Source: Patescibacteria group bacterium
GTDB lineage: Bacteria; Patescibacteriota; Patescibacteriia; UBA2591; JAQWAS01
Assembly (NCBI GenBank): GCA_028707495.1
Contig: JAQWAS010000001.1
Location: forward strand, 48,382-112,381
Reading direction: 5' to 3'
Length of the DNA stretch: 64,000 nucleotides
Shown here: positions 8,171-51,153 of the stretch, in pieces
Numbering within the stretch: position 1 is the stretch's first letter
How the letters are laid out: every line of letters begins with the position of its first letter
Translations under genes and position numbers: made by a program
The notes under the pieces: model-generated
Told to the model about the DNA's origin: nothing
Seen by the model: the letters and a program-made list of their open reading frames with translations, nothing else
Databases searched by the model: none

Positions 8171-8176
8171 ATCAAC

Positions 8177-8210: not shown

Positions 8211-8214
8211 TACC

Positions 8215-8243: not shown

Positions 8244-8306
8244 ATAGATAGATAATAATTATGGTTCTTTAATATCATATTTAATTGCGAAAAGAACAGA
8301 CTGTTA

Positions 8307-11150: not shown

Positions 11151-11161
11151 ATAATCTATTT

Positions 11162-12916: not shown

Positions 12917-12933
12917 ATTATTTTTTTATAAAA

Positions 12934-13260: not shown

Positions 13261-13267
13261 AAATTTT

Positions 13268-14263: not shown

Positions 14264-14270
14264 GCAAAAA

Positions 14271-14837: not shown

Positions 14838-14863
14838 AGATTAAATATGTTTGACTAAAATTA

Positions 14864-15352
<489 letters not shown>

Positions 15353-15392
15353 TTAATAATTATTAATTAAAAATTTAAATTTATAATATAAA

Positions 15393-34515: not shown

Positions 34516-35967
34516 ATGTATAATAAATATATTATGACATCTGGTCGCATAACTAAAAACACGTTTTATTTGACTTTAGCCTATGTAATCCAAAAGGTGA
34601 TAGCTTTTGTTTATTTTGCATTATTAGCTCGCTTTTTGGGGGCTGGAGACGTTGGTAAATATGTTTTTGCTTTATCTTTCACAACTATATTTTCAGTTTT
34701 TGTGGATGTGGGTTTGAATTCAGTTTTAACTCGGGAAGTAGCTAAACAAAAAGATAAAAGCAATGTTTTTTTAAAAAATGTTTTTACTTTTAAATTAATT
34801 GCCTCGGTGCTTATTTATGGAGCGATTGTGTTAGTAATTAATTTATTGGGCTATCAGACAATCACCAAACAATTAGTTTATTTAGCTGGTTTAGTCATGA
34901 TTCTGGATTCTTTTACTTTAAGTTTTTATGCTATTTTTCGGGGTCATCAAAATTTAAAATATGAAGGTATTGGCACAATTATTTATCAAATAATTGTCAT
35001 GACTGGTGGTGGAATAGCGATTTTTTTAAAATTACCTTTGCACGTTTTTATTTCTGTTTTAATTTTAGCTAGTTTATTTAACTTTAGTTTTTCTCTAATA
35101 TTGTTATACAAAAAATTAAATATTCAATTAGGTTGGCAAATCGACAAGCCAATTTTAAAATTTTTGTTAACCATTACAATTCCCTTTGCCATTGCCGGCA
35201 TTTTTATTAAAGTTTATTCTTATATGGATCAGGTTTTGTTATCAAAATTAGCCGGTGATACTGCCTTGGGTTTTTATAGTGTAGGCTATAAATTAACTTT
35301 TGCCTTACAATTTATTCCAGCAGCTTTTGGGGCGTCTATTTTTCCAGCTTTGGCAGAATTTTATGTTCAGGCACGAGAAAAATTGTCACAAACTTTCGAA
35401 AAAGCTATTAGCTATTTAAGCGTTTTGGCTTTTCCAATTTCAGTTGGTGGTTTCATTTTAGCTGATAAAATTATTTTAGAAATTTATGGTCCGGAATATC
35501 AAGCCTCAATCTTGGTTTTGCAAATTTTGATTTGTGCTATGTTTTTTATTTTTATCAATTATCCACTGGGTTCAATTTTAAACGCTTGTGATCGTCAGAA
35601 AAATAATACGATCAATATTGGCATAACTATGGTAGTAAATATTATTTTAAATTTAATTTTAATTCCACGTTATACTTATTTGGGTGCATCTATCGCAGCT
35701 TTGATTAGCCATGGTTTACTGACAGGTTTAGGTTTGTATTGGGTGGGTAAGACTATTGATTATAACCGCTGGCATGTTTGGAAGATAATTTTAAAATCGA
35801 TTTTGGCTAGTTTGATTATGGGTGGAGTGATTTATTGTTTTAAATCTTGGTTATGGTGGCCATTTTGGATTCCGGTGGGTGGTGGAATCTATATTTTAAT
35901 TATTATTTTAATTGGCGGTTTAAAACGCCAAGATGTACAATCAATTTTACTTTCGTTTAAAAAATAA
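34516..35967 (+). CDS. wzx: oligosaccharide flippase Wzx (MOP superfamily)
   Basis: 483 aa, about 12-14 TM, polysaccharide-biosynthesis-protein pattern. Confidence 0.65.
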   Translation: MYNKYIMTSGRITKNTFYLTLAYVIQKVIAFVYFALLARFLGAGDVGKYVFALSFTTIFSVFVDVGLNSVLTREVAKQKDKSNVFLKNVFTFKLIASVLIYGAIVLVINLLGYQTITKQLVYLAGLVMILDSFTLSFYAIFRGHQNLKYEGIGTIIYQIIVMTGGGIAIFLKLPLHVFISVLILASLFNFSFSLILLYKKLNIQLGWQIDKPILKFLLTITIPFAIAGIFIKVYSYMDQVLLSKLAGDTALGFYSVGYKLTFALQFIPAAFGASIFPALAEFYVQAREKLSQTFEKAISYLSVLAFPISVGGFILADKIILEIYGPEYQASILVLQILICAMFFIFINYPLGSILNACDRQKNNTINIGITMVVNIILNLILIPRYTYLGASIAALISHGLLTGLGLYWVGKTIDYNRWHVWKIILKSILASLIMGGVIYCFKSWLWWPFWIPVGGGIYILIIILIGGLKRQDVQSILLSFKK

Positions 35968-35972
35968 TTTAT

Positions 35973-37109
35973 ATGAAGATTTTAATTATTAATCCCAATT
36001 CTGATGGTGGCGTGTGCCAATACACGCAAGCCCTATGCCAGGCTTTAGAAAAAGAGCGAGCCAGTTTTATTTTATTAACTACTCAGGGTAAAAATGAGTT
36101 AGATTATTTTAAAAATGATTTTATAATTCGCCGCGAATTGAAATCGCCACGGGCGTTTTTATTTTTTAAATTATGGCGTTATTGGCACAATCGCCGTTGT
36201 ATTTTAAAAATGGTTCGTCGGGAAAAAATCGATGTAGTACATTTTGAGTGGTTATTGAGTCAAACTATGGATACCGGTTTAATAAAGAAATTACAGCGTT
36301 TAAACATTTTAACTGTTTACACGGCGCATAATATTTTACCGCACGAAGCTCGACCGGGAGATAAGCGTAAATTAAAAAAAATTTATCAAACAGTTGAAAA
36401 AATAATAGTTCACGCTGAAAATAATAAACAAGATCTAATTGATAATTTTAATATTCCAGCTAACAAAATAGATGTTATTTTCCATGGTAATTTTTTAAAT
36501 GTGGTTAAATTGCAATCAGAATTAACTTTTCTTGAAGCGCGCCGCATGTTAGGTTTAGAACAAAACAATTTTATAATTTTATTTTTTGGCAACGTGCGAC
36601 CCTATCGCGGATTAGATGTTTTAATTAAAGCCATGGTATATTTACGCAAATATTCCAATATTAAACTGGTGATTGCCGGTAAAATTCATGATTTTGAAAT
36701 TACGCAGGATTTGATTGATTTGTTTAAAGTTCGTGAAAGTACAGATTTTCATTTAAATTATATCTCGCTAGATGAAGTGCATAAATATTTTTATGCGGCT
36801 GATGTGGTGGTATTACCTTATCATAAAATTTATCAAAGTGGAGCAATTCAATTAGCTTATTCTTTTGGTCGACCGGTAATTAGTACCCAAACTGGTGGTG
36901 TGCCAGAAGTTATTGATGAAGATAAAAGTGGTTTTGTTATTCCGGTTGATGATTCTAAAATATTGGCTAAAAAGATTTTAACAATGTATCAGAATTTAGA
37001 TAAAACCAAATTAATGGGACGCTATAGTTTAGAATTAGCCAAGCAAAAATTTGATTGGACGGACATAGCTAAAAAAACCATTCAAGTTTATCAAAATAAT
37101 TTAAAATAA
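35973..37109 (+). CDS. glycosyltransferase family 1 (GT4-like)
   Basis: C-terminal GT-B nucleotide-sugar binding region (GRPVISTQTGGVPEVI). Confidence 0.7.
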   Translation: MKILIINPNSDGGVCQYTQALCQALEKERASFILLTTQGKNELDYFKNDFIIRRELKSPRAFLFFKLWRYWHNRRCILKMVRREKIDVVHFEWLLSQTMDTGLIKKLQRLNILTVYTAHNILPHEARPGDKRKLKKIYQTVEKIIVHAENNKQDLIDNFNIPANKIDVIFHGNFLNVVKLQSELTFLEARRMLGLEQNNFIILFFGNVRPYRGLDVLIKAMVYLRKYSNIKLVIAGKIHDFEITQDLIDLFKVRESTDFHLNYISLDEVHKYFYAADVVVLPYHKIYQSGAIQLAYSFGRPVISTQTGGVPEVIDEDKSGFVIPVDDSKILAKKILTMYQNLDKTKLMGRYSLELAKQKFDWTDIAKKTIQVYQNNLK

Positions 37110-37110
37110 T

Positions 37111-37833
37111 ATGCCACGATTGAGTGTTATAATTCCGACCTATCAGGATGGTAAATTAATTTCACAAACCATTGAATCAATTTTAGATCAAAATTTTAAA
37201 GATTTTGAAATTATTGTCGTGGTGGATGGTTCGACCGACGATACCTTAGAGAATTTAAAATGTTATAAAAACAAGATCAAGATTTTTTATCAGACCAACC
37301 AAGGCGCACCAGCAGCCCGTAATCGAGGGCTAAGAGAAGCTAATCCAAATTCAGAATTTATTATTTTTTGTGATAGCGATATGATATTATATGAAACAGC
37401 TTTTGAAAAAATGATCCAAATTTTAGAGCAACATCCCGACAAAAGTTATGTTTATAGTTCGTTCAGGTGGGGAAGTAAAAAATTTAAATTGCATGAATTT
37501 GATGCTATGAAATTAAAACAAGAAAATTATATTCACACCAGCTCGATGATCCGTCGTTGTGACTTTTCTCAACAAGGTTGGGACGAAAGTTTAAAAAGAT
37601 TTCAAGATTGGGATTTGTGGTTAACCATGTTAGAGCAAGGTAAAACCGGTAAATGGATTGATGAGATTTTATTTTATTTTTCTCCAGGCAAAAATCGTAT
37701 TAGTTCATGGTTGCCCAAATTTGTTTATAAAATACCTTGGCAGAAAATTGGTTGGGCGCCAACTTTAATCCAAAAATATTTTCAAGCCAAAAAAATTATT
37801 CAAAAGAAGCATACTCTTGACAGAAAAAGTTAG
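37111..37833 (+). CDS. glycosyltransferase family 2
   Basis: LSVIIPTYQDG..IIVVVDGSTDDT and CDSDM DxD motif. Confidence 0.75.
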   Translation: MPRLSVIIPTYQDGKLISQTIESILDQNFKDFEIIVVVDGSTDDTLENLKCYKNKIKIFYQTNQGAPAARNRGLREANPNSEFIIFCDSDMILYETAFEKMIQILEQHPDKSYVYSSFRWGSKKFKLHEFDAMKLKQENYIHTSSMIRRCDFSQQGWDESLKRFQDWDLWLTMLEQGKTGKWIDEILFYFSPGKNRISSWLPKFVYKIPWQKIGWAPTLIQKYFQAKKIIQKKHTLDRKS

Positions 37834-37892: not shown

Positions 37893-38138
37893 TTGGTTCA
37901 CGAACAGGGAATCTTAAATTGGGTAGAAGACATGTTAAGGGGGTTGTTGGATGGTCAATTTTTAGAGGGGTTAAACATGACCTTTGGCCCCCAAGACAAA
38001 GAGCTTATAGCTCAAAGAATTATGGATGAATGGAATATCGATTTTTCCCCAGGTGACATTGTTAATAATGTAACAGTCAGGCTATTAGTTGATATAATTG
38101 AAAAAAAAATAGAAAGGAAAAAAATTGCTGGAAATTAG
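37893..38138 (+). CDS. small ACP-like protein, paralog 1 (81 aa; TTG start with perfect SD)
   Basis: aaggaggt SD; C-terminal DEWNIDFSPGDI..TVRLLVDII resembles ACP helix III-IV (EEFDTEIPDEEAEKITTV..AIDYI); no canonical DSL serine. Confidence 0.45.
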   Translation: MVHEQGILNWVEDMLRGLLDGQFLEGLNMTFGPQDKELIAQRIMDEWNIDFSPGDIVNNVTVRLLVDIIEKKIERKKIAGN

Positions 38139-38364
38139 TTTAATGGATGTTCAAAAAATTCTCATGTTTGTTCTTGGCATTGCTTGTTCTAGAGCTTTAT
38201 CGGCTCAAAGCAATATTTCGGACAAAATGGAAGAAGCGTCTTTTAGAGAAGAAATAGCTAAAAAACTTCAAGATGAATTTAACATCCAAATTAATCCTGA
38301 CGATATAAAAGGTATATCCACTCCAAGAGAGTTAACTAAGTTTTTAATTAACTCCTCAAATTAG
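38125..38364 (+). CDS. small ACP-like protein, paralog 2 (79 aa)
   Basis: DEFNIQINPDDIKGISTPRELTKFLI; overlaps paralog 1 by 14 nt (translational coupling). Confidence 0.45.
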   Translation: MLEISLMDVQKILMFVLGIACSRALSAQSNISDKMEEASFREEIAKKLQDEFNIQINPDDIKGISTPRELTKFLINSSN

Positions 38365-38371: not shown

Positions 38372-38404
38372 TGAAGCTCGTGCATTTGCGCGAGCTTTTT
38401 ATTT
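38372..38404 (+). terminator. rho-independent terminator (aagctcg..cgagctt + T5)
   Basis: 7-bp stem plus TTTTT. Confidence 0.55.
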
Positions 38405-38483: not shown

Positions 38484-38735
38484 ATGTGTGTTAACAAATT
38501 TAATCCCGCACGAGAAATTCCCAAGATTATTGCTACCACCTTAGGAATTGAAGTTGGTGAAATAGGTTTGGGAACTAAGGTGCAAGATCTAATAGATCAC
38601 GATAATCCGGATTCCAGAGAGCAGTTGATCTGCGCTTTAACATCTGTCAAAGAAGTTAGAGTGAGTAGAGCTGATATTTTTGGACTTAAAACGGTAATAG
38701 AGATAATAAATCTCTTTTATGAAAGAATCTTCTGA
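38484..38735 (+). CDS. small ACP-like protein, paralog 3 (83 aa) with DS motif
   Basis: Good SD aaagagga; NPDSREQLICAL aligns with the ACP DSLxxVEL helix II; own promoter and terminator. Confidence 0.45.
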   Translation: MCVNKFNPAREIPKIIATTLGIEVGEIGLGTKVQDLIDHDNPDSREQLICALTSVKEVRVSRADIFGLKTVIEIINLFYERIF

Positions 38736-38744: not shown

Positions 38745-38780
38745 TAAACCCCGCCTAGTCGGGGTTTTCCTTTGTTTTAA
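38745..38780 (+). terminator. rho-independent terminator (aaccccg..cggggtt + T)
   Basis: 7-bp stem plus T tract. Confidence 0.6.
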
Positions 38781-38807: not shown

Positions 38808-39674
38808 ATGTCTCAACAAATTGATTTATCAATTATTATTGTTAATTGGAATGTTAAGGATTTATTGATCAAATCTTTGCAAAGTATTTTAGATAACACA
38901 CATGATATTAATTATGAAATTATTGTAGTAGATAATGCTTCGCAAGATGGTAGCGCAGATACGATTAAAGAAAAATTTCCGCAAATAAAGTTGATCGTCA
39001 ATCAACAAAATTTGGGTTATGCTCGAGCTAATAACCAGGGCATTCAACAGGCCAGGGGAGAGTATATTTTATTATTAAACCCAGATACATTGATTTTGGA
39101 AAACGCTTTGGTAAAATGTTTAAATTATATTAAAATTAATCCCAATATCGGAGTTTTAGGTTGTCGATTATTAAATCCTGATGGCTCTTTACAGCCGTCT
39201 GTAAGGCGTTTTCCGGGGCTTTGGGATCAAGTTGGTATATTACTCAAATTACATCACATTATGCCAAATTTAGCCGTTTTTAAACGTTATTTAGCAAATG
39301 ATTTAGATTATAGTCGTAGCCAGTCGGTTGAGCAGGTGATGGGTGCTTTTTTCTTAATTCCACACAAAATTATAAATCAAGTTGGTTTATTAGACGAAAT
39401 TTTTTTTATCTGGTTTGAGGAAGTAGATTATTGTCAACGAGTTAAGCAAGCTGGCCATCAAGTCTATTATTTTAATCAAGCGCAAATTATTCATCATTTT
39501 GGTCAAAGCTTTAAACAAAGATTGAGTTTAGACAAACAAAAAATTTTTAATCAAAGTTTGAGTTATTATTTTAAAAAACACCATTCTAAATTAGAATATA
39601 TAATTATTAATTTATTGCGACCCGTAAGTTTGGCGTTAGCTGGTTTAAGTCAGATTTTTAATTTTAAACAATGA
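38808..39674 (+). CDS. glycosyltransferase family 2
   Basis: LSIIIVNWN..VVDNASQDGS; LLLNPDT; EEVDYCQRV. Confidence 0.75.
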   Translation: MSQQIDLSIIIVNWNVKDLLIKSLQSILDNTHDINYEIIVVDNASQDGSADTIKEKFPQIKLIVNQQNLGYARANNQGIQQARGEYILLLNPDTLILENALVKCLNYIKINPNIGVLGCRLLNPDGSLQPSVRRFPGLWDQVGILLKLHHIMPNLAVFKRYLANDLDYSRSQSVEQVMGAFFLIPHKIINQVGLLDEIFFIWFEEVDYCQRVKQAGHQVYYFNQAQIIHHFGQSFKQRLSLDKQKIFNQSLSYYFKKHHSKLEYIIINLLRPVSLALAGLSQIFNFKQ

Positions 39675-41158
39675 AATTATTAACCCAAAAAACAAACTAT
39701 TTAAAAATTGGCACGATTTTTTTATTTTTATTATTTTTAGAAATAACATCGTTTGTAGGTTATTTAAATCCTGAAGTTAATGTTTTAGTTTTTAGTTTAA
39801 TTTTATTTTTTACTTTGATTTTAAGCTGGCAAAAATTAGAATACGGAATTTACATTATTTTAGCTGAGTTATTTATTGGTTCAAAGGGTTATTTATTTTT
39901 TTTACCAGTTGGTGAAAAAATGATTTCCTTGCGGATTGCTTTATTTGTGATAATGATGTTGGTTTGGGGATTAAAACTAATTATAGTTTGGTTTAAGAAA
40001 CATTCTTGGCCTGATAATTTTTTTGAAATTAGAAAATCTAAATTTTTTAAATATTATTTAATTTTGGCTTTATGTTTAATCTGGGGTGTAGTTTGGGGGT
40101 TAATTAGAAAAAATAGTTTAAGCAATCTATTTTTTGATTTTAATGGTTGGTTATATTTTATTTTAGTTATACCATTTTTTGATATTATTAAAACTGAACA
40201 ACATATTCAAAATATATTTAAAATTTTATCAGCTAGCTTGTTGATAGTTTGTTTTAAAACGGTATTTTTATTCTGGGTTTTTACTCATAACTTAGTTTGC
40301 TGGATGCAACCATTATATCGTTGGATGAGCGACAATTATATTGGTGAAATTAGTCTGATGAGTTATGATTTTTATCGTGTTTTTATTCAATCACAAATTT
40401 TTGTTTTAGTTGGTTTTTTTGTATTTTTGGTTGTTAGTTTGCGTTTTTTATTTAAACAAAACAACGGCTGGTTTAAAAATAAAAATTTGGCTTACGTTCT
40501 AACTGTTTTAAGCAGTTTAACTTTATTGATTAGTTTTTCGCGCTCTTTTTGGGTGGGTCTATTGGCTGGTATAATTTTATTGTTAATTTTAAGTAAAAAA
40601 GCGTGGCCACAGATTAAAATTAGTTTAGTAAAAATAGTTTTAGTTTTAATTTTAATTGCAGTTAGTAGTGCAGTTTTGGCCTTAGGTCTAGCTAATTTGC
40701 CCAAACCTTCTGGCGAGGTGGTTTCCCTGACCAGTTTAGTCGAGAAAAGACTAACCCAAAACGAGGTGGCTGGTATGAGCCGTTTAAATTTAATTCAACC
40801 ATTATTAAAAGCTATCGCTAAACATCCGGTGATTGGTTCGGGTTTTGGGCAGACGGTAACTTATCAATCCTTAGATCCTAGAAATTTAAAAGATAATTCT
40901 GAAGGTTGGTACACAACTTTCGCTTTCGAATGGGGTTATTTTGATATTTGGTTAAAAATTGGTTTGGTTGGATTGATGGTTTATTTATTTTTAATCTGGC
41001 AGATTATAAAAAGTGGCTGGCAAAATAGGTCAATTTTAAATATAAGTTTAATTCTAGGTTTAGTCGCGGTTTTAGTTACTAGTTTTTTTAGTCCGTATCT
41101 AAATCATCCCTTGGGGATTGGTTATTTAATTTTATGTTCAGTTATTTTTGAAAAATGA
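39671..41158 (+). CDS. Wzy / O-antigen-ligase-like polytopic membrane protein
   Basis: 495 aa, about 10-12 TM, large periplasmic loop with RSFWVGLLAG. Confidence 0.5.
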   Translation: MKLLTQKTNYLKIGTIFLFLLFLEITSFVGYLNPEVNVLVFSLILFFTLILSWQKLEYGIYIILAELFIGSKGYLFFLPVGEKMISLRIALFVIMMLVWGLKLIIVWFKKHSWPDNFFEIRKSKFFKYYLILALCLIWGVVWGLIRKNSLSNLFFDFNGWLYFILVIPFFDIIKTEQHIQNIFKILSASLLIVCFKTVFLFWVFTHNLVCWMQPLYRWMSDNYIGEISLMSYDFYRVFIQSQIFVLVGFFVFLVVSLRFLFKQNNGWFKNKNLAYVLTVLSSLTLLISFSRSFWVGLLAGIILLLILSKKAWPQIKISLVKIVLVLILIAVSSAVLALGLANLPKPSGEVVSLTSLVEKRLTQNEVAGMSRLNLIQPLLKAIAKHPVIGSGFGQTVTYQSLDPRNLKDNSEGWYTTFAFEWGYFDIWLKIGLVGLMVYLFLIWQIIKSGWQNRSILNISLILGLVAVLVTSFFSPYLNHPLGIGYLILCSVIFEK

Positions 41159-41976
41159 AATTACCAAATTTAACATCAAGATTTTATATTTTTTTTAGTC
41201 ATAAAGTTTTCAAAAAATGGAAATCAACCCTACGGGGTTTATATTATAGTTTAACTAAGTTGATTTATTATGGTACTTTTGATATGTTTGCAGCAGTGGA
41301 TATAGAGACCATTAGTAGTTGTAATTTAAAATGCCATTATTGTCCGACAGCTTATTATGATCGTGGTCAGCATTTAATGTCAGAAAATTTGTTCAAAAAA
41401 ATTATTGATGAATTGGCTGAAATTAGGTTTAGGGGTAGGATTTCACCACATTTTTATGGCGAACCATTATTAGATGATAGATTGTCTAAATTATTATTAT
41501 ATGCTCGACAAAAATTACCACAGGCCGATATTATTATTCATACCAATGGTTTGTTATTAACTAAAAAAAAGTTTGATGAATTTTTAAAAAATAAAGTTGA
41601 TGGATTTGTAATTACCCTGCACAATGATTTAGTTAAAAATAAAATGGATCAATTTTTTAAATTATTAAATAAAAAAGAAAAACGTAAAATCAGAATTTTA
41701 AAGCCCGAAAAAATGATTTTATTTAATCGCGGTGGATTGGTTAAAATAACAAGAGCACATAAAATAAAAAGATGTTTTTATATACGCGATGAAATAGCCA
41801 TTAATTATGGCGGTGAAGTGGTTTGTACTAATGATTTTTTGGCTAAATATAGTTTTGGTAATGTTAAAAATCAATCATTGACGGATATTTGGCATAAACC
41901 CAAATTTAAACAAATCAGACGAAATCTTTTAAAAGGAAAACCGGCCATGAATATTTGTCGAAATTGTTTGAAATAA
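41155..41976 (+). CDS. radical SAM protein with SPASM/twitch-like C-terminal Cys cluster
   Basis: CNLKCHYCP (CxxxCxxC) and C-terminal C..C..CRNC. Confidence 0.65.
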   Translation: MKLPNLTSRFYIFFSHKVFKKWKSTLRGLYYSLTKLIYYGTFDMFAAVDIETISSCNLKCHYCPTAYYDRGQHLMSENLFKKIIDELAEIRFRGRISPHFYGEPLLDDRLSKLLLYARQKLPQADIIIHTNGLLLTKKKFDEFLKNKVDGFVITLHNDLVKNKMDQFFKLLNKKEKRKIRILKPEKMILFNRGGLVKITRAHKIKRCFYIRDEIAINYGGEVVCTNDFLAKYSFGNVKNQSLTDIWHKPKFKQIRRNLLKGKPAMNICRNCLK

Positions 41977-42044
41977 AAAACCCCCGAACGTGATTAGTCC
42001 GGAGTAGGTTTTATTCGATCCAACATTAATTTATCAAATTATTT

Positions 42045-43058
42045 ATGTCAACAACTAAAGTCGCTATTAGTTTGGTTACCTGGAACGCAGTCAAATATCT
42101 GCCATGGTGTTTGGATTCAGTTTTAAATCAAACTTTCAAGGATTATGAAATTTTAATTATTGATAATGCCTCGACTGATGGCACAGTTGATTTTATTCGA
42201 CAAAACTATCCGAATTTAAAAGTAGTAGTTAATAAAAATAACTTAGGTTTTAGTCAGGCACACAATCAAGCGATTCATTGGACCGAAAGTCAATATGTTT
42301 TATGCTTAAATCAAGATGTAATTTTAGAGCCAGATTTTTTACAACAAGCCATTGATTTTTTAGATCACAATTCAAAGATTGGGAGTTTAACTGGCAAATT
42401 ATTAACTTGGAATTTTGACGAATCTAGCATCTTGCCCAAAATTACCAAAAGTGGTAAGTTAGACAGCGCGGGTCTAGTCATTCATAAAAATCATCAAATA
42501 GTTGATATTGGTCAGGGACGCAGAGATGGAGAACAATTTAAAACTGGTCAGGAAATTTTTGGAGTTTCTGGCGCTGCGCCAATTTATCGTCGTCAAGCCC
42601 TAAATGATGTTAAATATAAAAACGAATATTTTGATGAAAACTTTTTTATGTACAAAGAAGATGTTGATTTAGCTTATCGTTTAAGATGGTATGGTTGGTC
42701 GGCGGCATATTGGCCAGCAGTTGTGGCTTATCATCAACGGGGTGCCCAAGGTAAAGAAAATTTTAAAAGTACTCATCAGCATCGTTCAGTTAAGTCTGAT
42801 TTTGTTAATTATCATTCCTATAAAAATCACTGGTATGTTTTAATTAAAAACGAAACGCTGAACAATATATTTGTTCATTTACCGCATATCTTTTGGTACG
42901 AATTTAAAAAGTTTATTTATTTAATTCTATTTGAAAAACAAACCTTAAAAAGCTTTAAAGAAATTAAAAAATATTGGCGTTTAATGTTAAATAAGCGGCA
43001 CTATATTTTAAAAAATAAAAAAGTTGAATCTAAAGAAATAAGACAATGGTATGTATAA
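42045..43058 (+). CDS. glycosyltransferase family 2
   Basis: ISLVTWN..IIDNASTDGT; KEDVDLAYRL. Confidence 0.75.
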   Translation: MSTTKVAISLVTWNAVKYLPWCLDSVLNQTFKDYEILIIDNASTDGTVDFIRQNYPNLKVVVNKNNLGFSQAHNQAIHWTESQYVLCLNQDVILEPDFLQQAIDFLDHNSKIGSLTGKLLTWNFDESSILPKITKSGKLDSAGLVIHKNHQIVDIGQGRRDGEQFKTGQEIFGVSGAAPIYRRQALNDVKYKNEYFDENFFMYKEDVDLAYRLRWYGWSAAYWPAVVAYHQRGAQGKENFKSTHQHRSVKSDFVNYHSYKNHWYVLIKNETLNNIFVHLPHIFWYEFKKFIYLILFEKQTLKSFKEIKKYWRLMLNKRHYILKNKKVESKEIRQWYV

Positions 43059-43860
43059 AGATGTAGCTATAATCATAGTAAATTATAAATCAAAAGGCTT
43101 ATTGAAAAATTGTTTAAAGTCTATTTTTAGTGATTTGGAAAATACAACTTTAAATTACAGTGTAGTCGTGATTGATAATGATTCTCAAGATGATAGCGAA
43201 CAAATGTTAATTCAAGAATTTCCTCGGACTGAGAGGATTTTTTTAAAAAATAATTTAGGCTACGCTCGAGCCGTTAACCTTGGTTTGAAAAAATTTCCAG
43301 CTAAATATTATTTTGTTTTAAATCCTGATACTCTGTTTTTAGAAAAAAAAGTTATTGAGCGTTTGTTTAATTTTATGGAGGCACATCCACGAGTTGGTTT
43401 GGTTGGACCGAAATTAATTAATCCCGACCGAAGTATTCAATATTCAGCTTGTCGTTTCCCTAACTTTTGGGTACCAATTTATCGTCGAACCAAATTAGGT
43501 AAATTAAAACGAGCGAGTCAAAAAATTGATCATTTTTTAATGCATGAATGGGATCATCGTGATACTCGAGAAGTTGATTGGGTTTTGGGTACGGGTATGT
43601 TTGTGCGCCATCAGGCTATGGAAGAGGTTGGTGGTATGGACGAAAGATTTTTTATGTATTTTGAAGACGTGGATTGGTGTCGGCGTTTTAAAGAAAAGAA
43701 TTGGCCAGTTTATTATTTGGCTGACGTTGAGGTTATTCATTATCATGGCCGTCCTTCAGCTGAAATGACAGGTATTAAAAGTATTTTATTTAGTCGTGGC
43801 ACGCGCATACACATTGCTTCTTGGTTAAAATATTTTTTAAAATATTGGCTTCATAAATAA
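43051..43860 (+). CDS. glycosyltransferase family 2
   Basis: IIVNYKS..VIDNDSQDDS; FEDVDWCRRF. Confidence 0.75.
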   Translation: MYKDVAIIIVNYKSKGLLKNCLKSIFSDLENTTLNYSVVVIDNDSQDDSEQMLIQEFPRTERIFLKNNLGYARAVNLGLKKFPAKYYFVLNPDTLFLEKKVIERLFNFMEAHPRVGLVGPKLINPDRSIQYSACRFPNFWVPIYRRTKLGKLKRASQKIDHFLMHEWDHRDTREVDWVLGTGMFVRHQAMEEVGGMDERFFMYFEDVDWCRRFKEKNWPVYYLADVEVIHYHGRPSAEMTGIKSILFSRGTRIHIASWLKYFLKYWLHK

Positions 43861-43866: not shown

Positions 43867-45819
43867 ATGGATTATTATACCTTTCAGCAACAAGCAACTA
43901 ATTTTTTAGACCAACAAATTAACCGGCCACGCTGGCGCAAAGTTAAAATTGGCTTAACGATTTTTTTCTGTTTAATTTTAATTTTAATTGGTTTTAGTAT
44001 TAAAGATTTATTTTTAATTAAAAATGTTATTCAAAACAGTTTACAAGCTAAAGATTTAATTGTCACCGTGCAAAATGATTTAATGCGTCAGGATTATCAA
44101 GTTATTAATCAAAACATCGATCAGGCTGATTACATTTTAAATCAACAATTGTCGGCGCTAGATAGATTATTAATTTTAGATAAATTGCCGATGGTTAGGC
44201 GACAGGTTTTTTTAATTGAAAATTTTTTAATGTTAGGGCAAAACACGACACAAACTTTAAAAATAATTTTACCGATAGCAGATAATTTATTGCAAATTAT
44301 TAGTCAAGCCCAATCATTAGAAAATGTTTTGCAAGATCAACGTTTAACAATTTTAAATTATTTAGAAGCGAATCATACACAATTAATTTTAGCAACTGAA
44401 AAAATTAATGTTTCTCAAGAATTAATTCAAATAATTGATGATTATTCAACCTTTAAACAAGCTGAAGAATTAATTGATGTGTATGTTAAAGATTTGAAAT
44501 CAACCTATAAATTAGTTGGTCAAATAGTTGATTTTTTAAATATTGCGCCACAAGCCTTGGGTTATCCTCAAGAAAAAAATTATTTAATAATTTTACAAAA
44601 TAATAATGAATTAAGACCAACGGGCGGTTTTATCGGTAGTTATGGAATTTTAAAATTACAAAATGCAGAAATCAAAGAATTGAAAATAGATGACGTCTAT
44701 AATCTCGATAAATTAGTTGAGGGTGATTTAAATCAATCATCCCCAGAGCCTTTGTGTCAGCACGCGCATTGGTGTGATTGGTATTTACGAGATGCCAATT
44801 GGTGGCCAGATTTTCCCACCTCAGCTCAAAATATAATTCATTTTTATCAACTCGAAAGACAAGTAGCTAATTTAGACCTACAGCAAATTGATGGGGTGAT
44901 AGCGATTAATCCAGAATTTGTAGTTAATCTAGTGGAATTAATTGGTCCGATTAAAATCAATAATATAGAATTCAGTAGTGATAATTTTGTTCAACTTTTA
45001 CAAGAAGAGGTTGAGATGACATATTATGAAAAGGGCATTCCGCAGGCTGAGCGTAAGGAAATTTTAAATGATTTATACGCTTTTATTTTTAAACAAATTT
45101 TAAGTTTACCTTTGGAAAAATATTTAACGCTAGTTAATATTACACAGAATAATATCAATCAACGTAATTTAACTTTTTATTTTACGGATCAAAATTTACA
45201 AAATTATTTTGAACAACATAATTGTACGGGCGAAATAAAAAATTTGGCGGGAGATTATTTGATGTTGGTGGATACTAATTTACGTAGTTTAAAAACCGAT
45301 CGTTTAATTCAACGTCAAATAAATTATCAAGTTTATCCCGATGAAGATGATTTGATAGTGCAACTAAAAATTCATTATACTAATTTGGGTCAAAATGAGG
45401 ATTGGCAAACCGATGATTATCGAAATTATGTTAGAATTTATTTACCCAAAGATATAGGATTAATTGACAGTTATGGTTTTATAAAAAATGAAGGTACGCC
45501 AGCCTCAGCTGAGCCTTTAATATATACAGAAAATAATAAAACCGTTTTAGCTGGTTTAATTATGGTTCCCTTGGGTCAAGAAAAAGAAATCGGATTTACA
45601 TATCGTTTACCAAAAGAAATTAGTCAATTTAAAGATTATAATTTATATATTCAAAAACAATCGGGTATGCAAAATGTAAGTCTAAATGTTGATTTAAAAT
45701 TTAATAAAAAAATTAGTCAAACTAAGGCTACAGATGTGTATATTCAGCAAATCAATCAACAACAAGTTAAAATTGAAAATAATTTAAAACAAGATTTGGC
45801 GATTGAAATAAATTTTTAA
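43867..45819 (+). CDS. DUF4012-like membrane-anchored protein
   Basis: N-terminal TM; NNELRPTGGFIGSYG signature as recalled for DUF4012. Confidence 0.45.
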   Translation: MDYYTFQQQATNFLDQQINRPRWRKVKIGLTIFFCLILILIGFSIKDLFLIKNVIQNSLQAKDLIVTVQNDLMRQDYQVINQNIDQADYILNQQLSALDRLLILDKLPMVRRQVFLIENFLMLGQNTTQTLKIILPIADNLLQIISQAQSLENVLQDQRLTILNYLEANHTQLILATEKINVSQELIQIIDDYSTFKQAEELIDVYVKDLKSTYKLVGQIVDFLNIAPQALGYPQEKNYLIILQNNNELRPTGGFIGSYGILKLQNAEIKELKIDDVYNLDKLVEGDLNQSSPEPLCQHAHWCDWYLRDANWWPDFPTSAQNIIHFYQLERQVANLDLQQIDGVIAINPEFVVNLVELIGPIKINNIEFSSDNFVQLLQEEVEMTYYEKGIPQAERKEILNDLYAFIFKQILSLPLEKYLTLVNITQNNINQRNLTFYFTDQNLQNYFEQHNCTGEIKNLAGDYLMLVDTNLRSLKTDRLIQRQINYQVYPDEDDLIVQLKIHYTNLGQNEDWQTDDYRNYVRIYLPKDIGLIDSYGFIKNEGTPASAEPLIYTENNKTVLAGLIMVPLGQEKEIGFTYRLPKEISQFKDYNLYIQKQSGMQNVSLNVDLKFNKKISQTKATDVYIQQINQQQVKIENNLKQDLAIEINF

Positions 45820-45854: not shown

Positions 45855-46862
45855 ATGTTTAGTAAAAAAATAGGTATTGATTTGGGGACAACTAACACTT
45901 TGGTCCATATTCCCAAACGTGGGGTGGCAATTAACGAACCATCGGTCATTGCTATTTCTAAAATTGATAAAAAAATATTAGCCGTAGGCGAAGAAGCTAA
46001 AGACATGTTGGGTCGCACACCAGATTCAATTATTGCTTCTCAACCCATGAAAGATGGAGTAATCGCCGATTATCGAGCCACTGAAGCTATGTTAAAATAT
46101 TTTATTAATAAAACTTTAACCGGTTTTCGTTTTTTTCGTCCCGAAGTGATGGTCTGTACACCCGGCGGTGCGACTTCAACTGAAAAACGGGCGGTGATTG
46201 ATGCGGCCATGGCGGCGGGGGCTAAAGCGGCTTATATTATTAAAGAACCAATTGCGGCAGCCATTGGGGCTTCTATTCCAATTGGATCAGCTTCAGGACA
46301 TATGATTGTAAATATGGGTGGTGGAACTTGCGAAATTGCTGTTATTTCTTTGGGCGGTATTGTAGCTAGCAGCTCAATTCGAGTCGCTGGTAATAAATTT
46401 GATATGGCTATTTTAGAACACGTGCGTCGTCGCTATAATTTAGATATTGGCGAAGCGACCGCTGAACAAGTTAAAATTAATATTGGTTCAGCTCTTTTCT
46501 TAGAAAATAAATTAAAAATGCGAGTCAGGGGTCGCAATACTATTACGGGTTTGCCGTATACAGTGACAATTACTTCTAATGATGTAACTGAAGCTATTCA
46601 AATAGAATTAGAAAACATTATTTCTGCTATCAAAATGGTTCTACGGGATACGCCTCCAGAACTTTCGGCTGACGTGATGGATAAGGGTATTGTTTTAGCT
46701 GGTGGTTCATCACAGCTACGCAAATTAGATAAATTATTTTCTCAGGCTTTAAATATTCCAGTTTATATTGCGGATGAACCGATTTTATGTGTCATTCGAG
46801 GAATTGGTTTAGCCTTAGATAATTTGGATTCATACAAGAGAAGTTTGTTATCTAATAAATAA
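45855..46862 (+). CDS. actin-like MreB paralog (first copy)
   Basis: IGIDLGTTNTLV; GGGTCEIAVISLGG; full-length MreB alignment. Confidence 0.8.
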   Translation: MFSKKIGIDLGTTNTLVHIPKRGVAINEPSVIAISKIDKKILAVGEEAKDMLGRTPDSIIASQPMKDGVIADYRATEAMLKYFINKTLTGFRFFRPEVMVCTPGGATSTEKRAVIDAAMAAGAKAAYIIKEPIAAAIGASIPIGSASGHMIVNMGGGTCEIAVISLGGIVASSSIRVAGNKFDMAILEHVRRRYNLDIGEATAEQVKINIGSALFLENKLKMRVRGRNTITGLPYTVTITSNDVTEAIQIELENIISAIKMVLRDTPPELSADVMDKGIVLAGGSSQLRKLDKLFSQALNIPVYIADEPILCVIRGIGLALDNLDSYKRSLLSNK

Positions 46863-48523: not shown

Positions 48524-49648
48524 ATGTTTATCGGTATCGACGCTTCACGCGCCAATAAAAAACATAAAACCGGAGTCGAATGGTATGCTTATCATTTAAT
48601 CCAAAATTTAAAAAAAATTGATTCACACAATCAATATTTTTTATATACCAACAAAAAATTAAAAGGCGAACTAGGCGATTGCCCGGCTAATTTTCAAGAG
48701 GTAGTTTTAAATTGGCCACCACGGTATTTATGGACGCAAATTAGATTATCTTGGGCTATGAAATTTAGCAAATACAAACCAGATGTTTTATTTATTCCAG
48801 CTCACACTATTCCAATTTTACATCCGAAAAATTCAATCGTGACTATTCACGATGTGGGTTTTGCGCGTTTTCCAAAATTATATAACTGGAAAGATAAATT
48901 GTATCACAACTGGACTTTAAAATTTATCAAAAAGCATGCTAAAAAAATAATTACAGTCTCCCAATTTTCCAAACAAGAAATCGTTAAATTTTATAAAATT
49001 AAGCCAGACAAAATCCAAGTTATTTACAATGGCTTTGATGCGGGCAATTATCAATCTGTTCAAGATAAAAACTTAATTCAACTAATTTTAGAAAAATATA
49101 GCATCACTCAACCTTATTTTTTAAATATCGCACGCTTGGAATATAAAAAAAATATTTTAGGCTTAATTAAGTCTTTTGAAATTTTTAAAAATAAATTTGA
49201 ATCAGCCCAAAATTTTAAATTAATTTTAGTTGGCAATAGGGGAGCTGGCGCAGATCAAATTTTACAAGCTATTGAGAAATCAAAATTTAAAAAAGACATT
49301 TTAACTTTAGGTTGGCTTGACAGAAGAGATTTAAACTATTTAATGAACGGTTGTCGAGCTTTTATTTTTCCATCTTTATACGAAGGTTTTGGCATTCCAG
49401 TTTTAGAAGCCATGTCGTGTGGCGTACCAGTGATAACTTCTCGAGCAGCTTCATTACCAGAGGTGGTCGCAGATGCTGCTTTGTGTGTTGATCCAGAAAA
49501 TTATAATGATTTGGCTCAAAAAATGTATCAAATTGATACAGATGAGAATTTGCGTCAAGAATTAATTAAAAAAGGTTTTCAGCAAATTAAAAAGTTTTCT
49601 TGGCAGGAATGTGCGCAAAGAGTTTTGGATGTGTTGACAAGAGATTAA
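48524..49648 (+). CDS. glycosyltransferase family 1 (GT4)
   Basis: YEGFGIPVLEAMSCGVPVI. Confidence 0.8.
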   Translation: MFIGIDASRANKKHKTGVEWYAYHLIQNLKKIDSHNQYFLYTNKKLKGELGDCPANFQEVVLNWPPRYLWTQIRLSWAMKFSKYKPDVLFIPAHTIPILHPKNSIVTIHDVGFARFPKLYNWKDKLYHNWTLKFIKKHAKKIITVSQFSKQEIVKFYKIKPDKIQVIYNGFDAGNYQSVQDKNLIQLILEKYSITQPYFLNIARLEYKKNILGLIKSFEIFKNKFESAQNFKLILVGNRGAGADQILQAIEKSKFKKDILTLGWLDRRDLNYLMNGCRAFIFPSLYEGFGIPVLEAMSCGVPVITSRAASLPEVVADAALCVDPENYNDLAQKMYQIDTDENLRQELIKKGFQQIKKFSWQECAQRVLDVLTRD

Positions 49649-50162: not shown

Positions 50163-51153
50163 TGTTTTAGACACATACATTTTGCACCCTCAAACCAAGG
50201 GCTTGATTAGGAGTTAGACCGTTTAAGGCACAATGTTCTAAATCATTGTAATACATATTCCAAAGTTTAATCTTGTATTTTAATTCTTCAAAACTATTAA
50301 ATTTAACCTGGTTATAGAATTGTTCTTGATCGGTACGATGACTACGCTCTACGTGTCCATTTTGAGCAGGCTTACCAGGATCAATCAGATAATGTTGTAT
50401 GTTTAATCTTTGACATTCTAAATCAAGTATGTGTAGGCGTGGATTAAGTGGATGGATACTTTTAATATAGCCCGTATAACGATTAGTGAAGATCGAAGCA
50501 TTGTCAGTCTTGATAGCTAAGATTTTATGAGGGAAGTTTTGAATAACTTGATTAAAAAAATCTAGACTTAAATGATTGCCTTGGGCTTCATAGATTTTAA
50601 TATAGCGCCAACGTGTAGCACAGTCAATAGCTGTAAACTGGTAAAAACGCCTAGAACCTAGTAATTGAGGCACATATTTAACGTCTATCTCAACTAAGTC
50701 ACCTGGTTGTAGTTGTGCTTTAACATACTTGTATTTAACTTTACGCACACGATATTTACGTGTTAAACCCTCTGTTTTGATGATTTTACCAATAGTGCGA
50801 TGATGAAGATGAATCCCTTGTTTATTTAAGCGCCAGGCTAATTTTTGAGCGCACAGACCTGTTTCTTGTCTTAACTCAATAACTTGTTCTTTGATTCGAA
50901 TAGACGTCTCTTGGGGATGGCTTTTAGGGCGAGTTGACTTGTTGACTAGACCAGCTAAACCAGACTGTTTAAAGTTAGCTAACCAATACTTAAGAGTCCT
51001 TTCACAGAAGGGACAAACTTGAACCATATTTTTAATGGTAATTTTACCATCAAGGATTGGTTTAATCCAACGAAGTTTTTCTTCGATTGTTGATTTGGGC
51101 ATAGTTTTAGACATGCCCCTAGTTTAGCAAAAAGTGCAATATGTGTGTACACA
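50160..51153 (-). mobile_element. IS481-family insertion sequence (about 1 kb) with imperfect terminal inverted repeats
   Basis: TIR candidates tgttttagacacatacattttgcac (left) and reverse complement of gtgcaatatgtgtgtacaca (right); transposase stop codon lies inside the IR as usual for IS481. Confidence 0.6.
50167..51114 (-). CDS. DDE transposase, IS481 family (HTH + integrase core)
   Basis: N-terminal HTH; rve core with D..D..E (IDVKYV, KTDNASIF, HVERSHRT). Confidence 0.75.
   Translation of the reverse strand: MSKTMPKSTIEEKLRWIKPILDGKITIKNMVQVCPFCERTLKYWLANFKQSGLAGLVNKSTRPKSHPQETSIRIKEQVIELRQETGLCAQKLAWRLNKQGIHLHHRTIGKIIKTEGLTRKYRVRKVKYKYVKAQLQPGDLVEIDVKYVPQLLGSRRFYQFTAIDCATRWRYIKIYEAQGNHLSLDFFNQVIQNFPHKILAIKTDNASIFTNRYTGYIKSIHPLNPRLHILDLECQRLNIQHYLIDPGKPAQNGHVERSHRTDQEQFYNQVKFNSFEELKYKIKLWNMYYNDLEHCALNGLTPNQALGLRVQNVCV

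What the first reader, a model, noticed from the sequence alone, without database searches (positions are those of the whole stretch)
41155..41976. Radical SAM / SPASM-type enzyme inside a Wzx/Wzy glycan cluster
A 273-aa protein has CNLKCHYCP (CxxxCxxC) and a C-terminal C..C..CRNC cluster. It is translationally coupled (4-nt overlap) to the Wzy-like membrane protein and followed by two GT2 genes. SPASM/twitch radical-SAM enzymes usually mature peptides or modify sugars and cofactors, so one in a small-genome surface-polysaccharide operon is unusual. Candidate roles are sugar C-methylation or epimerisation, or crosslinking one of the nearby small proteins.
Basis: partly seen in the sequence, partly recalled or inferred. 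Interest (0 to 1): 0.5.

Follow-up and report, generated by a model that had tools for sequence, protein, structure and literature searches.

The report
BtrN-like radical-SAM sugar oxidase beside Wzy
The gene is real and encodes a small iron-sulfur "radical SAM" enzyme closely resembling BtrN, a known sugar-alcohol oxidase. It belongs to a rare, uncharacterised family that sits in cell-surface sugar-polymer gene clusters and at prophage ends, so it most likely modifies a sugar, not a peptide.

Summary
ORF 41155-41976 (+, 273 aa) has CNLKCHYC plus four C-terminal Cys. It overlaps the Wzy_C gene by ATGA and is followed by two GT2 genes.

It is not a full SPASM enzyme or a peptide maturase. It is a near full-length homolog of BtrN, the founding "twitch" radical-SAM dehydrogenase:
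- phmmer E 1.6e-36, 32% identity.
- AF2 model pLDDT 93.5; Foldseek TM 0.88, rmsd 2.1 A.
- All seven Cys align with BtrN's 3+4 cluster ligands, leaving no spare Cys.

The family is small (262 clusters at E<=1e-30 among 1.84 billion representatives) and always lies in glycan contexts: GT2/GT4 (also as fusions), methyltransferases, Wzx, and overlapping DegT aminotransferases in one clade.

The window's own clade carries a basic amphipathic N-terminal extension of about 43 aa. It is adjacent to Wzy_C genes in six lineages. In Enterobacteriaceae and Acinetobacter it sits at prophage ends next to tailspike, tail-fibre or lysis genes.

The three small ACP-like ORFs are orphans in separate transcription units and are unlinked.

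Best reading: an oxygen- and NAD-independent oxidation of a sugar hydroxyl on a Wzx/Wzy-pathway intermediate. The chemistry and substrate are inferred. I rate it a new variant of a known kind.

The parts
41155..41976 (+). BtrN-family twitch radical-SAM enzyme, 273 aa (the finding)
   Evidence: ORF. Pfam Radical_SAM + SPASM above GA. BtrN 4m7t/4m7s E 1.6e-36 over q43-271. AF2 pLDDT 93.5. Foldseek BtrN TM 0.88, rmsd 2.1 A.
41155..41283 (+). Clade-specific N-terminal extension (aa 1-43), absent from BtrN: two helices, basic, aromatic-rich, amphipathic
   Evidence: BtrN alignment starts at q43-44. Conserved motif in clade. Helices 9-17 and 20-39 in the model. Net charge +7, 11 aromatic residues, muH 0.55 vs mean 0.23 for the rest.
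41320..41343 (+). CX3CX2C radical-SAM cluster motif (C56, C60, C63)
   Evidence: Invariant in 79/79 family sequences and aligned to BtrN C16/C20/C23. BtrN RS-cluster Cys identities from PMC9012708.
41728..41730 (+). R192 of the NRGG motif, equivalent to BtrN Arg152
   Evidence: Invariant or nearly invariant in A1/A2. Aligned to BtrN 'SNRGG'. The catalytic role of Arg152 is from my own recollection of the BtrN structure paper, which could not be read here.
41773..41967 (+). Twitch domain with four auxiliary-cluster Cys (C207, C224, C268, C271)
   Evidence: Pfam SPASM 207-271. All four aligned with BtrN's four C-terminal Cys and conserved in 77-79 of 79 sequences. BtrN auxiliary cluster is Cys4-ligated (PMC9012708).
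39671..41158 (+). Wzy_C-domain polytopic membrane protein (polymerase/ligase family), translationally coupled to the rSAM
   Evidence: Pfam Wzy_C 56 bits. ATGA overlap. 30% identical to the Wzy_C partner of the Kerfeldbacteria homolog.
38808..39674 (+). GT2 glycosyltransferase, first gene of the GT2-Wzy_C-rSAM overlapping triplet
   Evidence: Pfam Glycos_transf_2 94.6 bits. ATGA overlap with Wzy_C. Preceded by a terminator at 38746-38767.
41982..42004 (.). GC-rich hairpin just after the rSAM stop codon (possible weak or bidirectional terminator or attenuator before the next GT2)
   Evidence: Scanner hit on the - strand. Sequence read.
42045..43058 (+). GT2 glycosyltransferase
   Evidence: Pfam Glycos_transf_2 97 bits.
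43051..43860 (+). GT2 glycosyltransferase (rhamnosyltransferase-like)
   Evidence: Pfam Glycos_transf_2 64 bits. NCBIfam rhamnosyltransferase 68 bits, below cut-off.
43867..45819 (+). DUF4012 protein, last gene of the cluster
   Evidence: Pfam DUF4012 102 bits.
34516..35967 (+). Wzx-type flippase (Polysacc_synt), start of the glycan cluster
   Evidence: Pfam Polysacc_synt 151 bits.
35973..37109 (+). GT4 glycosyltransferase
   Evidence: Pfam Glycos_transf_1 / Glyco_transf_4.
37111..37833 (+). GT2 glycosyltransferase
   Evidence: Pfam Glycos_transf_2 105 bits.

Best explanation
The gene encodes a BtrN-family 'twitch' radical-SAM enzyme that tailors a carbohydrate of the Wzx/Wzy surface-glycan pathway.

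Shown here: it has the CX3CX2C site for the SAM-cleaving [4Fe-4S] cluster and the four Cys of a single, fully Cys-ligated auxiliary [4Fe-4S] cluster. It adopts the BtrN fold and keeps the NRGG arginine. It has no RRE, no B12 domain and no spare cysteine.

Inferred mechanism, by analogy with BtrN: the reduced RS cluster cleaves SAM to the 5'-deoxyadenosyl radical. That radical abstracts the carbinol H of a secondary sugar hydroxyl. The ketyl-type radical is deprotonated (R192) and gives its electron to the auxiliary cluster, leaving a keto-sugar. This is a two-electron oxidation that needs neither O2 nor NAD(P)+.

Inferred substrate: a cytoplasmic intermediate, either a nucleotide sugar or, more likely for this clade, the undecaprenyl-PP-linked repeat unit at the membrane. 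Two observations point that way. First, this clade alone has gained a basic, aromatic, amphipathic N-terminal extension. Second, it is repeatedly paired with a Wzy_C polymerase/ligase that would have to accept the altered unit.

In relatives the same enzyme is coupled to a DegT aminotransferase (keto to amino sugar), fused to GT2/GT4, or carried alone at prophage ends. That fits a portable surface-glycan modification function.
For: Homology and fold:
- BtrN is the only strong PDB sequence hit (E 1.6e-36, q43-271 vs BtrN 4-235 of about 250).
- 32% identity over 227 positions.
- AF2 model pLDDT 93.5, pTM 0.90.
- Foldseek top hit is BtrN with AdoMet and 2-DOIA, E 1.9e-20, TM 0.88, rmsd 2.1 A; the next hit is at E 4.5e-8.

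Cofactor sites:
- All 7 Cys are conserved in 77-79 of 79 family members and aligned to BtrN's Cys.
- BtrN's auxiliary cluster is Cys4-ligated, and BtrN carries out a 2-electron oxidation of a secondary alcohol (PMC9012708).

No family-specific NCBIfam model is reached, including all peptide maturases.

Glycan context across 85+ loci:
- GT4 in 18 loci, methyltransferase in 16, GT2 in 14, B12-rSAM in 11, polysaccharide deacetylase in 10, Wzx in 6 or more, PMT_2 in archaea.
- DegT/DnrJ/EryC1 aminotransferase immediately downstream, mostly overlapping, in 10 of the 17 members of one clade. This is the BtrN/BtrS logic.

Domain fusions: GT2+rSAM (P0133), rSAM+GT4 (P0160), rSAM+methyltransferase (P0129).

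Wzy_C adjacency in the window's clade:
- window; Kerfeldbacteria; Serratia two-gene island; Deltaproteobacteria Wzz-rSAM-Wzy_C; the same layout in a 49%-identity relative; an Acinetobacter prophage.
- Gene orders differ between lineages, and the Wzy partners are far more divergent than the rSAMs.

N-terminal extension properties.

Prophage-end positions next to receptor-binding or lysis genes.
Against: - Chemistry cannot be read from sequence. Twitch or BtrN-like folds also support epimerisation (HygY; only the title was seen) and other radical reactions.
- Identity to BtrN is only 32%, and substrate-contact residues could not be compared because the BtrN structure papers are not held.
- The 64-kb window has no aminotransferase, reductase or methyltransferase to use a keto product, so a keto-sugar end product or an unlinked partner must be assumed.
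- Wzy_C adjacency holds in only about 6 of about 16 lineages of the clade. The closest relative (61%) stands alone next to a phosphohexomutase gene.
- The membrane-binding role of the N-terminal helices is inference from composition.
- The role of Arg152/R192 rests on my recollection.
- No isolated phage genome carries a close homolog.
Confidence: 0.6

Rival explanations
1. It is a radical-SAM sugar epimerase (HygY/NeoN-like). H-abstraction at a sugar carbon is followed by H-atom return to the opposite face, changing the configuration of one residue of the repeat unit.
For: [quoted passage not shown] No enzyme that would consume a keto product is present in the window. An epimerised unit would also explain the need for a dedicated Wzy_C.
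Against: Known radical-SAM epimerases of this type use a non-ligand Cys as H-atom donor (HygY title; the EpeE C223A structures listed). This protein has exactly seven Cys, all aligned to BtrN cluster ligands. The nearest characterised relative by far is a dehydrogenase. A sister clade is coupled to aminotransferases, which need a ketone.
Confidence: 0.2
2. It is a RiPP-type maturase that crosslinks or modifies one of the three nearby small (ACP-like) proteins.
For: Pfam SPASM hit. Weak sub-threshold similarity to many peptide maturase models over the rSAM core. Three small ORFs lie 2.4-3.3 kb upstream.
Against: Only four C-terminal Cys, so a twitch domain and not a SPASM domain. The 43-aa N-terminal extension is too short for an RRE, and there is no PqqD-like hit. 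The small ORFs have only self-hits in 5.8 billion proteins and no counterpart near any of 85+ homolog loci. Strong terminators (38373-98, 38746-67) and their own promoters separate them from the rSAM operon. Every conserved neighbour or fusion partner is a glycan enzyme.
Confidence: 0.03
3. It performs some other radical carbohydrate chemistry: dehydration or deoxygenation (AprD4-like), decarboxylation (BlsE-like), deamination (DesII-like) or C-C bond formation on a sugar or lipid-linked intermediate.
For: Foldseek also recovers DesII, BlsE and SpeY at E of about 1e-6 to 1e-5. Frequent neighbouring methyltransferases, B12-rSAMs and second rSAM/SPASM genes show that these loci make heavily tailored sugars.
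Against: Those enzymes are far more distant (12-16% identity, TM 0.3-0.5) than BtrN and gave no sequence hit at E<=1. The Cys4 auxiliary cluster and the NRGG Arg are conserved as in BtrN.
Confidence: 0.15

Closest known systems
BtrN (2-deoxy-scyllo-inosamine dehydrogenase, butirosin biosynthesis, Niallia/Bacillus circulans; PDB 4M7T/4M7S)
   Same: Near full-length homology (E 1.6e-36, 32% identity). Same size core and same fold (TM 0.88, rmsd 2.1 A). CX3CX2C plus four auxiliary-cluster Cys in register. NRGG Arg and the FYGEPLL motif conserved. No spare Cys.
   Different: Extra 43-aa basic amphipathic N-terminal extension. Sits in a Wzx/Wzy glycan operon overlapping a Wzy_C gene, not in a 2-deoxystreptamine aminoglycoside cluster. 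No 2-DOI synthase or BtrS-type aminotransferase in the window. The substrate must differ (a sugar of a surface polymer, not an aminocyclitol). BtrN falls in a different clade of the family tree.
Other twitch radical-SAM carbohydrate enzymes: SpeY (spectinomycin dehydrogenase, PDB 7WZV) and HygY (hygromycin B epimerase)
   Same: Twitch-type radical-SAM enzymes acting on secondary alcohols of sugars or cyclitols. SpeY is recovered structurally (E about 3e-6).
   Different: Only 14-16% identity and TM about 0.45 to SpeY, with no sequence-level hit. HygY-type epimerisation needs a catalytic non-ligand Cys, which is absent here.
SPASM-domain RiPP maturases (anSME, CteB, SuiB, PqqE, SkfB)
   Same: Share the radical-SAM core and the first half of the SPASM motif (CX9-15GX4C ... 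CX2C). The Pfam SPASM model matches.
   Different: They have 7-8 C-terminal Cys, two auxiliary clusters (SkfB excepted), usually an N-terminal RRE, and adjacent precursor peptides. None of these is present. Structural matches are poor (TM 0.3-0.5).
Phage- or island-borne O-antigen conversion modules (P22 gtrABC, Oac acetyltransferases, D3/epsilon15 Wzy-beta cassettes); from my own knowledge
   Same: Close homologs occupy the same genomic slot, between the tailspike or tail fibre or lysis genes and the integrase or prophage end. In Acinetobacter and Serratia they travel with a Wzy_C gene.
   Different: Known conversion enzymes are glucosyl-, acetyl- or phosphoethanolamine-transferases or polymerases. 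No radical-SAM chemistry has been described for seroconversion (no paper found). The window copy is chromosomal, in a CPR glycan operon, not in a prophage.

Membership tests
Radical SAM superfamily | CX3CX2C motif binding the SAM-cleaving [4Fe-4S] cluster within a partial TIM-barrel core | tested here: met
   C56/C60/C63. Pfam PF04055 46.4 bits, above GA 29.5. The model has the alternating strand/helix core. Invariant in 79/79 relatives.
BtrN-like twitch radical-SAM enzymes | Full-length sequence and fold similarity to BtrN | tested here: met
   phmmer E 1.6e-36 over q43-271. Foldseek E 1.9e-20, TM 0.88, rmsd 2.1 A.
BtrN-like twitch radical-SAM enzymes | Single auxiliary [4Fe-4S] cluster with four Cys ligands in an abridged SPASM ('twitch') domain | tested here: met
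   C207, C224, C268 and C271 align column-for-column with BtrN's four C-terminal Cys. BtrN's auxiliary cluster has Cys4 ligation per PMC9012708. Actual cluster binding was not measured.
BtrN-like twitch radical-SAM enzymes | Two-electron oxidation of a secondary alcohol to a ketone | not testable with these tools
   Inferred from homology, from the absence of a spare Cys, and from DegT coupling in a sister clade. Needs an enzymatic assay.
BtrN orthologs (2-DOIA dehydrogenase of aminoglycoside pathways) | Context of 2-deoxystreptamine biosynthesis (2-DOI synthase, BtrS-type aminotransferase) | tested here: not met
   No aminotransferase or cyclase anywhere in the 64-kb window. Neighbours are Wzx, Wzy_C and GT2/GT4. 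The protein falls in a different tree clade from BtrN.
SPASM-domain radical-SAM enzymes (two auxiliary clusters) | Seven-Cys motif CX9-15GX4C-gap-CX2CX5CX3C-gap-C | tested here: not met
   Only CX11GX4C ... CX2C. The protein ends two residues after the CX2C.
RiPP radical-SAM maturases | RRE (PqqD-like) recognition domain and a conserved adjacent precursor peptide | tested here: not met
   No PqqD/RRE hit, and the N-terminal extension is 43 aa in two helices. The small ORFs are orphans, absent near homologs, and transcriptionally separate.
Class B (cobalamin-dependent) radical-SAM methyltransferases | N-terminal B12-binding domain | tested here: not met
   No PF02310 hit in this protein. B12-rSAMs are separate genes in some relatives' loci.
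Twitch radical-SAM epimerases (HygY/NeoN type) | Non-ligand catalytic Cys acting as H-atom donor | tested here: not met
   Exactly 7 Cys in the protein, all aligned to BtrN cluster ligands. The criterion is taken from the HygY paper title and my own knowledge.
Prokaryotic viperins (pVip defence) | Full-length match to pVip models, with a nucleotide-binding C-terminal extension | tested here: not met
   Only a 41-bit partial match over the rSAM core (residues 53-153).

The most novel reading that the evidence does not exclude
The window's clade of BtrN-like enzymes, alone or as an rSAM + Wzy_C two-gene module, is a horizontally mobile surface-glycan conversion device. It is shared between CPR/Patescibacteria, Deltaproteobacteria, Enterobacteriaceae, Acinetobacter and their prophages. 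It would use radical-SAM chemistry to oxidise (or otherwise rewrite) a sugar of the lipid-linked repeat unit, with a cognate Wzy_C enzyme then polymerising or ligating the altered unit. That would be the first radical-SAM-based seroconversion or phage-receptor-masking mechanism, and a route to keto-sugars in polymers under anoxic, NAD-independent conditions.
Probability: 0.25. Interest if true: 0.75.

Novelty: new variant of a known kind. Interest (0 to 1): 0.55.

Why it matters
BtrN-type radical-SAM dehydrogenases are known only from aminoglycoside antibiotic pathways. This work shows that a compact, rare family of close BtrN relatives is instead wired into cell-surface glycan assembly across Bacteria and Archaea. 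Members are fused to glycosyltransferases, coupled to sugar aminotransferases, paired with Wzy_C polymerases/ligases, and carried at prophage ends next to receptor-binding proteins.

If the inferred chemistry is right, it is an oxygen- and NAD-independent way to install keto (and from there amino) sugars in surface polymers. It is also a new candidate class of phage-encoded serotype-conversion enzyme. For CPR bacteria, whose envelopes are almost unknown, it flags an unusual sugar in their surface polymer. The prediction can be tested directly in tractable hosts such as Klebsiella, Serratia and E. coli KMi006.

Tried and rejected
- NCBIfam scan: 56 weak hits, none near its cut-off (best 80 vs 380). 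No curated family assignment, so all 'maturase' names were rejected.
- PADLOC: only a generic partial pVip hit, so defence viperin was rejected.
- Phage database (tblastn of the Klebsiella homolog): one 28% hit in 50,697 records. The gene is a prophage cargo seen in bacterial genomes but not documented in isolated phages.
- Plasmids: only distant hits (33% or less).
- The BtrN structure paper, the SPASM/twitch review and the HygY paper could not be read because they are not held. The BtrN substrate-contact residues were therefore not compared, and the Arg152 role is from memory.
- My first greedy gene caller lost the rSAM in 16 high-GC loci. I replaced it by anchoring on the HMM hit. Apparent long 'fusions' in L062, L069, L076 and L078 are ORF-extension artefacts of that caller. 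Real fusions were taken from database proteins instead.
- A small iterated Wzy HMM recruited few partners because Wzy_C proteins are too divergent. Adjacency was established with Pfam on the individual neighbours.
- Literature searches for radical SAM combined with O-antigen, Wzy, seroconversion or capsule returned nothing relevant.
- Reverse co-occurrence test with the small ORFs: only self-hits.
Full report
**1. Observation**

The ORF is exactly as described: 41155-41976 on the + strand, 273 aa.
- It carries CNLKCHYC (C56/C60/C63) and four further Cys (C207, C224, C268, C271). The protein ends '...ICRNCLK'.
- Pfam Radical_SAM (46.4 bits) and SPASM (51.2 bits) both exceed their gathering scores.
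- The start codon overlaps the stop of the upstream Wzy_C-domain gene (39671-41158) in an ATGA. That gene in turn overlaps the preceding GT2 gene the same way.
- Two GT2 genes and a DUF4012 gene follow. Wzx, GT4 and GT2 genes lie upstream.
- The window is about 31% GC. The identical protein is deposited from a 'Patescibacteria group bacterium' MAG.

**2. What the protein is**

No NCBIfam model comes near its cut-off; the best is 80 bits against a cut-off of 380.

Against all PDB sequences, the only strong hit is BtrN, the radical-SAM 2-deoxy-scyllo-inosamine dehydrogenase of butirosin biosynthesis. The match is E 1.6e-36, with query 43-271 aligned to BtrN 4-235 of about 250 residues. Identity is 32% over 227 aligned positions.

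An AlphaFold2 model built on a 110-sequence alignment is confident (pLDDT 93.5, pTM 0.90). Foldseek against the PDB returns BtrN with AdoMet and 2-DOIA far ahead of everything else: E 1.9e-20, TM 0.88, rmsd 2.1 A. The next hit, CteB, is at 4.5e-8.

In a 79-sequence family alignment that includes BtrN:
- C56/C60/C63 align with BtrN C16/C20/C23.
- The four C-terminal Cys align with BtrN's four C-terminal Cys.
- Six of the seven Cys columns are invariant, and C271 is present in 77 of 79 sequences.

BtrN's auxiliary [4Fe-4S] cluster is ligated by four Cys and is thought to accept the electron in a two-electron alcohol-to-ketone oxidation (PMC9012708).

The protein is therefore a 'twitch' enzyme with one auxiliary cluster. 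It is not a full SPASM enzyme, because the CX2CX5CX3C...C half is missing. The Arg of the NRGG motif (R192, equivalent to BtrN R152) and H156 are conserved. I recall Arg152 as the proposed base in BtrN, but I could not re-read the paper.

**3. Family size and contexts**

An exhaustive phmmer scan of 1.84 billion cluster representatives finds only 262 at E<=1e-30, so the family is small.

I collected 76 loci from species-representative genomes, plus loci from exact-protein look-ups. Unbiased clustering of all ORFs within 3 kb of each rSAM, with Pfam annotation of representatives, gives only glycan-pathway neighbours:

| Neighbour | Loci |
|---|---|
| GT4 | 18 |
| SAM methyltransferase | 16 |
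| GT2 | 14 |
| second rSAM/SPASM | 14 |
| B12-rSAM | 11 |
| polysaccharide deacetylase | 10 |
| DegT/DnrJ/EryC1 aminotransferase | 10 |
| NAD epimerase/dehydratase | 7 |
| Wzx flippase | 6 or more |

Archaeal loci also carry PMT_2 (GT-C type) glycosyltransferases.

A neighbour-joining tree resolves context-specific clades. One clade of 17 has the DegT aminotransferase immediately downstream, usually overlapping, in 10 members. That is the dehydrogenase-then-transaminase logic of BtrN/BtrS.

Database members also occur as fusions: GT2+rSAM, rSAM+GT4, rSAM+methyltransferase and rSAM+rSAM.

No conserved small peptide gene was found anywhere.

**4. The window's own clade**

Thirteen tree leaves, plus further look-ups, share a conserved N-terminal extension of about 43 aa ('M(K/R)LP...RGxYN..K...YG') that BtrN and the DegT clade lack.
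- In the model it forms two helices, 9-17 and 20-39.
- It is basic (+3 to +7), aromatic-rich and amphipathic. The hydrophobic moment is 0.50-0.66, against a mean of 0.23 for the rest of the protein.

Members of this clade are directly adjacent to a Wzy_C gene in six lineages:
- the window;
- a Kerfeldbacteria MAG (rSAM then Wzy_C);
- Serratia sp. FGI94 and S. rubidaea, as a two-gene island beside dsbB;
- a Deltaproteobacteria MAG (Wzz-rSAM-Wzy_C, 9-nt gap);
- a 49%-identity metagenomic relative (Wzz-rSAM-Wzy_C-GT9-GT4);
- Acinetobacter seifertii.

Gene order differs between lineages. The Wzy partners are much more diverged than the rSAMs. The window's Wzy is 30% identical to the Kerfeldbacteria one and 22% or undetectable to the others, while the rSAMs are 46-47% identical. 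That argues for functional coupling and against frozen synteny.

Other members stand alone or sit next to a GT2:
- the 61% relative, next to a phosphohexomutase gene;
- a standalone copy after alaS (L009);
- Spirosoma, with a GT2.

**5. Prophage positions**

The enterobacterial and Acinetobacter members (44-47% identical to the window protein) sit at prophage ends:
- K. pneumoniae: beside a P22-type tailspike.
- K. aerogenes: between integrase and tailspike, at two different chromosomal sites.
- Raoultella: just beyond the tail-fibre, tail-fibre-assembly and Mu-like baseplate genes.
- A. seifertii: between a GH108 endolysin and a phage integrase, together with an IS-disrupted Wzy_C.
- E. coli: the single positive among 5,426 complete genomes, between the holin/endolysin/spanin cassette and large tail ORFs next to host yfgI.

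From my own knowledge, this is the slot where P22-like phages carry O-antigen conversion genes. A close homolog was not found in 50,697 deposited phage genomes, so this remains a contextual inference.

**6. The small ORFs**

- s1 (37893-38138) and s2 (38125-38364) are weakly similar to each other.
- s2 just passes Pfam PP-binding over its C-terminal half.
- Only s3 (38484-38735) has a DS motif.
- s2 and s3 have only self-hits in 5.8 billion proteins.
- None of the three has a counterpart near any other family member.
- The two strongest + strand terminators of the region follow s2 (38373-38398) and s3 (38746-38767). TTGACA promoters precede s1 and s3.

They are therefore separate transcription units and are not linked to the rSAM.

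**7. Mechanism**

Shown here: the cofactor sites, the fold, the family contexts and the fusions.

Inferred:
- BtrN-type catalysis. SAM cleavage is followed by abstraction of a carbinol H, then deprotonation and electron transfer to the Cys4 auxiliary cluster, giving a keto-sugar.
- Dehydrogenation is preferred over epimerisation. The protein has no non-ligand Cys to return an H atom, and a sister clade feeds aminotransferases.
- The substrate must be cytoplasmic. The clade-specific amphipathic extension and the Wzy_C pairing suggest the Und-PP-linked repeat unit, with the Wzy_C enzyme adapted to the altered unit.

Against this, the window has no enzyme to process a ketone, Wzy_C adjacency is incomplete, and the chemistry is not proven.

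**8. Verdict**

- The protein is a new variant of a known kind, a BtrN-like twitch radical-SAM enzyme recruited to Wzx/Wzy surface-glycan assembly.
- No paper in the searchable library describes such a role.

Noticed in passing
L001 10001-10834; L088/L089 9001-9834; L086 9001-9834; L012 8001-8852; L093 9001-9834: Close homologs (44-47% identity) in Klebsiella, Raoultella, Acinetobacter and one E. coli lie at prophage ends, beside tailspike, tail-fibre or lysis genes and integrases. This is the typical slot of lysogenic-conversion (O-antigen-modifying) genes. In Acinetobacter the gene travels with an IS-disrupted Wzy_C.
   Followed up: partly
L041, L047, L049, L050, L052, L057, L059, L062, L067, L078 (rSAM at about 8000-8750, DegT immediately downstream): A separate clade of the family, mostly Pseudomonadota and Myxococcota MAGs, has a DegT/DnrJ/EryC1 aminotransferase overlapping the rSAM stop codon. 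This looks like a BtrN/BtrS-like keto-then-amino sugar module outside aminoglycoside pathways.
   Followed up: partly
window 37893-38138, 38125-38364, 38484-38735: Three small ACP-like ORFs sit inside the glycan cluster, in two separate transcription units with strong promoters and terminators. Only the third keeps a DS (phosphopantetheine-site-like) motif. All are orphans with only self-hits in 5.8 billion proteins. Their function is unknown.
   Followed up: partly
window 41155-41976 (database entry P0001) and P0008, P0051: JGI/IMG names this protein and some relatives '8-amino-3,8-dideoxy-alpha-D-manno-octulosonate transaminase'. That is clearly wrong for a radical-SAM protein. It is probably a KO transfer from rSAM-aminotransferase neighbours or fusions.
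   Followed up: no
A1/A2 alignment columns at window C224: Archaeal and many other clades have a 'CC' doublet (LCCNDY) at the second auxiliary-cluster Cys, where the window's clade and BtrN have a single Cys (CTND/CFED). The extra Cys could be an H-atom donor, which would mean epimerase chemistry in those clades.
   Followed up: no
window 20924-28372: A giant ORF of 2,482 aa on the + strand, just downstream of a MurB-like gene and a GT2-like membrane protein. Not analysed.
   Followed up: no
window 9768-17384 (- strand): A V/A-type ATPase operon (A and B subunits, C/AC39, subunit I) in this Patescibacteria-like genome.
   Followed up: no
window 50167-51114 (- strand): An IS481-family transposase (rve, HTH_32, LZ_Tnp_IS481) about 4 kb downstream of the glycan cluster, next to another GT4 gene (48524-49648).
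   Followed up: no
window 45855-46862 and 59579-60646: Two actin-like MreB-type genes. The second is a clear MreB next to mreC and a PBP2-like gene. The first (by eye, GIDLGTTNT motif; not scanned) directly follows the glycan cluster.
   Followed up: no
NZ_CP006570.1 395367-396083 (hit H3, Sodalis praecaptivus megaplasmid): A 33%-identity family member annotated as 'radical SAM/SPASM domain-containing protein | glycosyltransferase'. This is another rSAM-GT adjacency or fusion, here on a plasmid.
   Followed up: no
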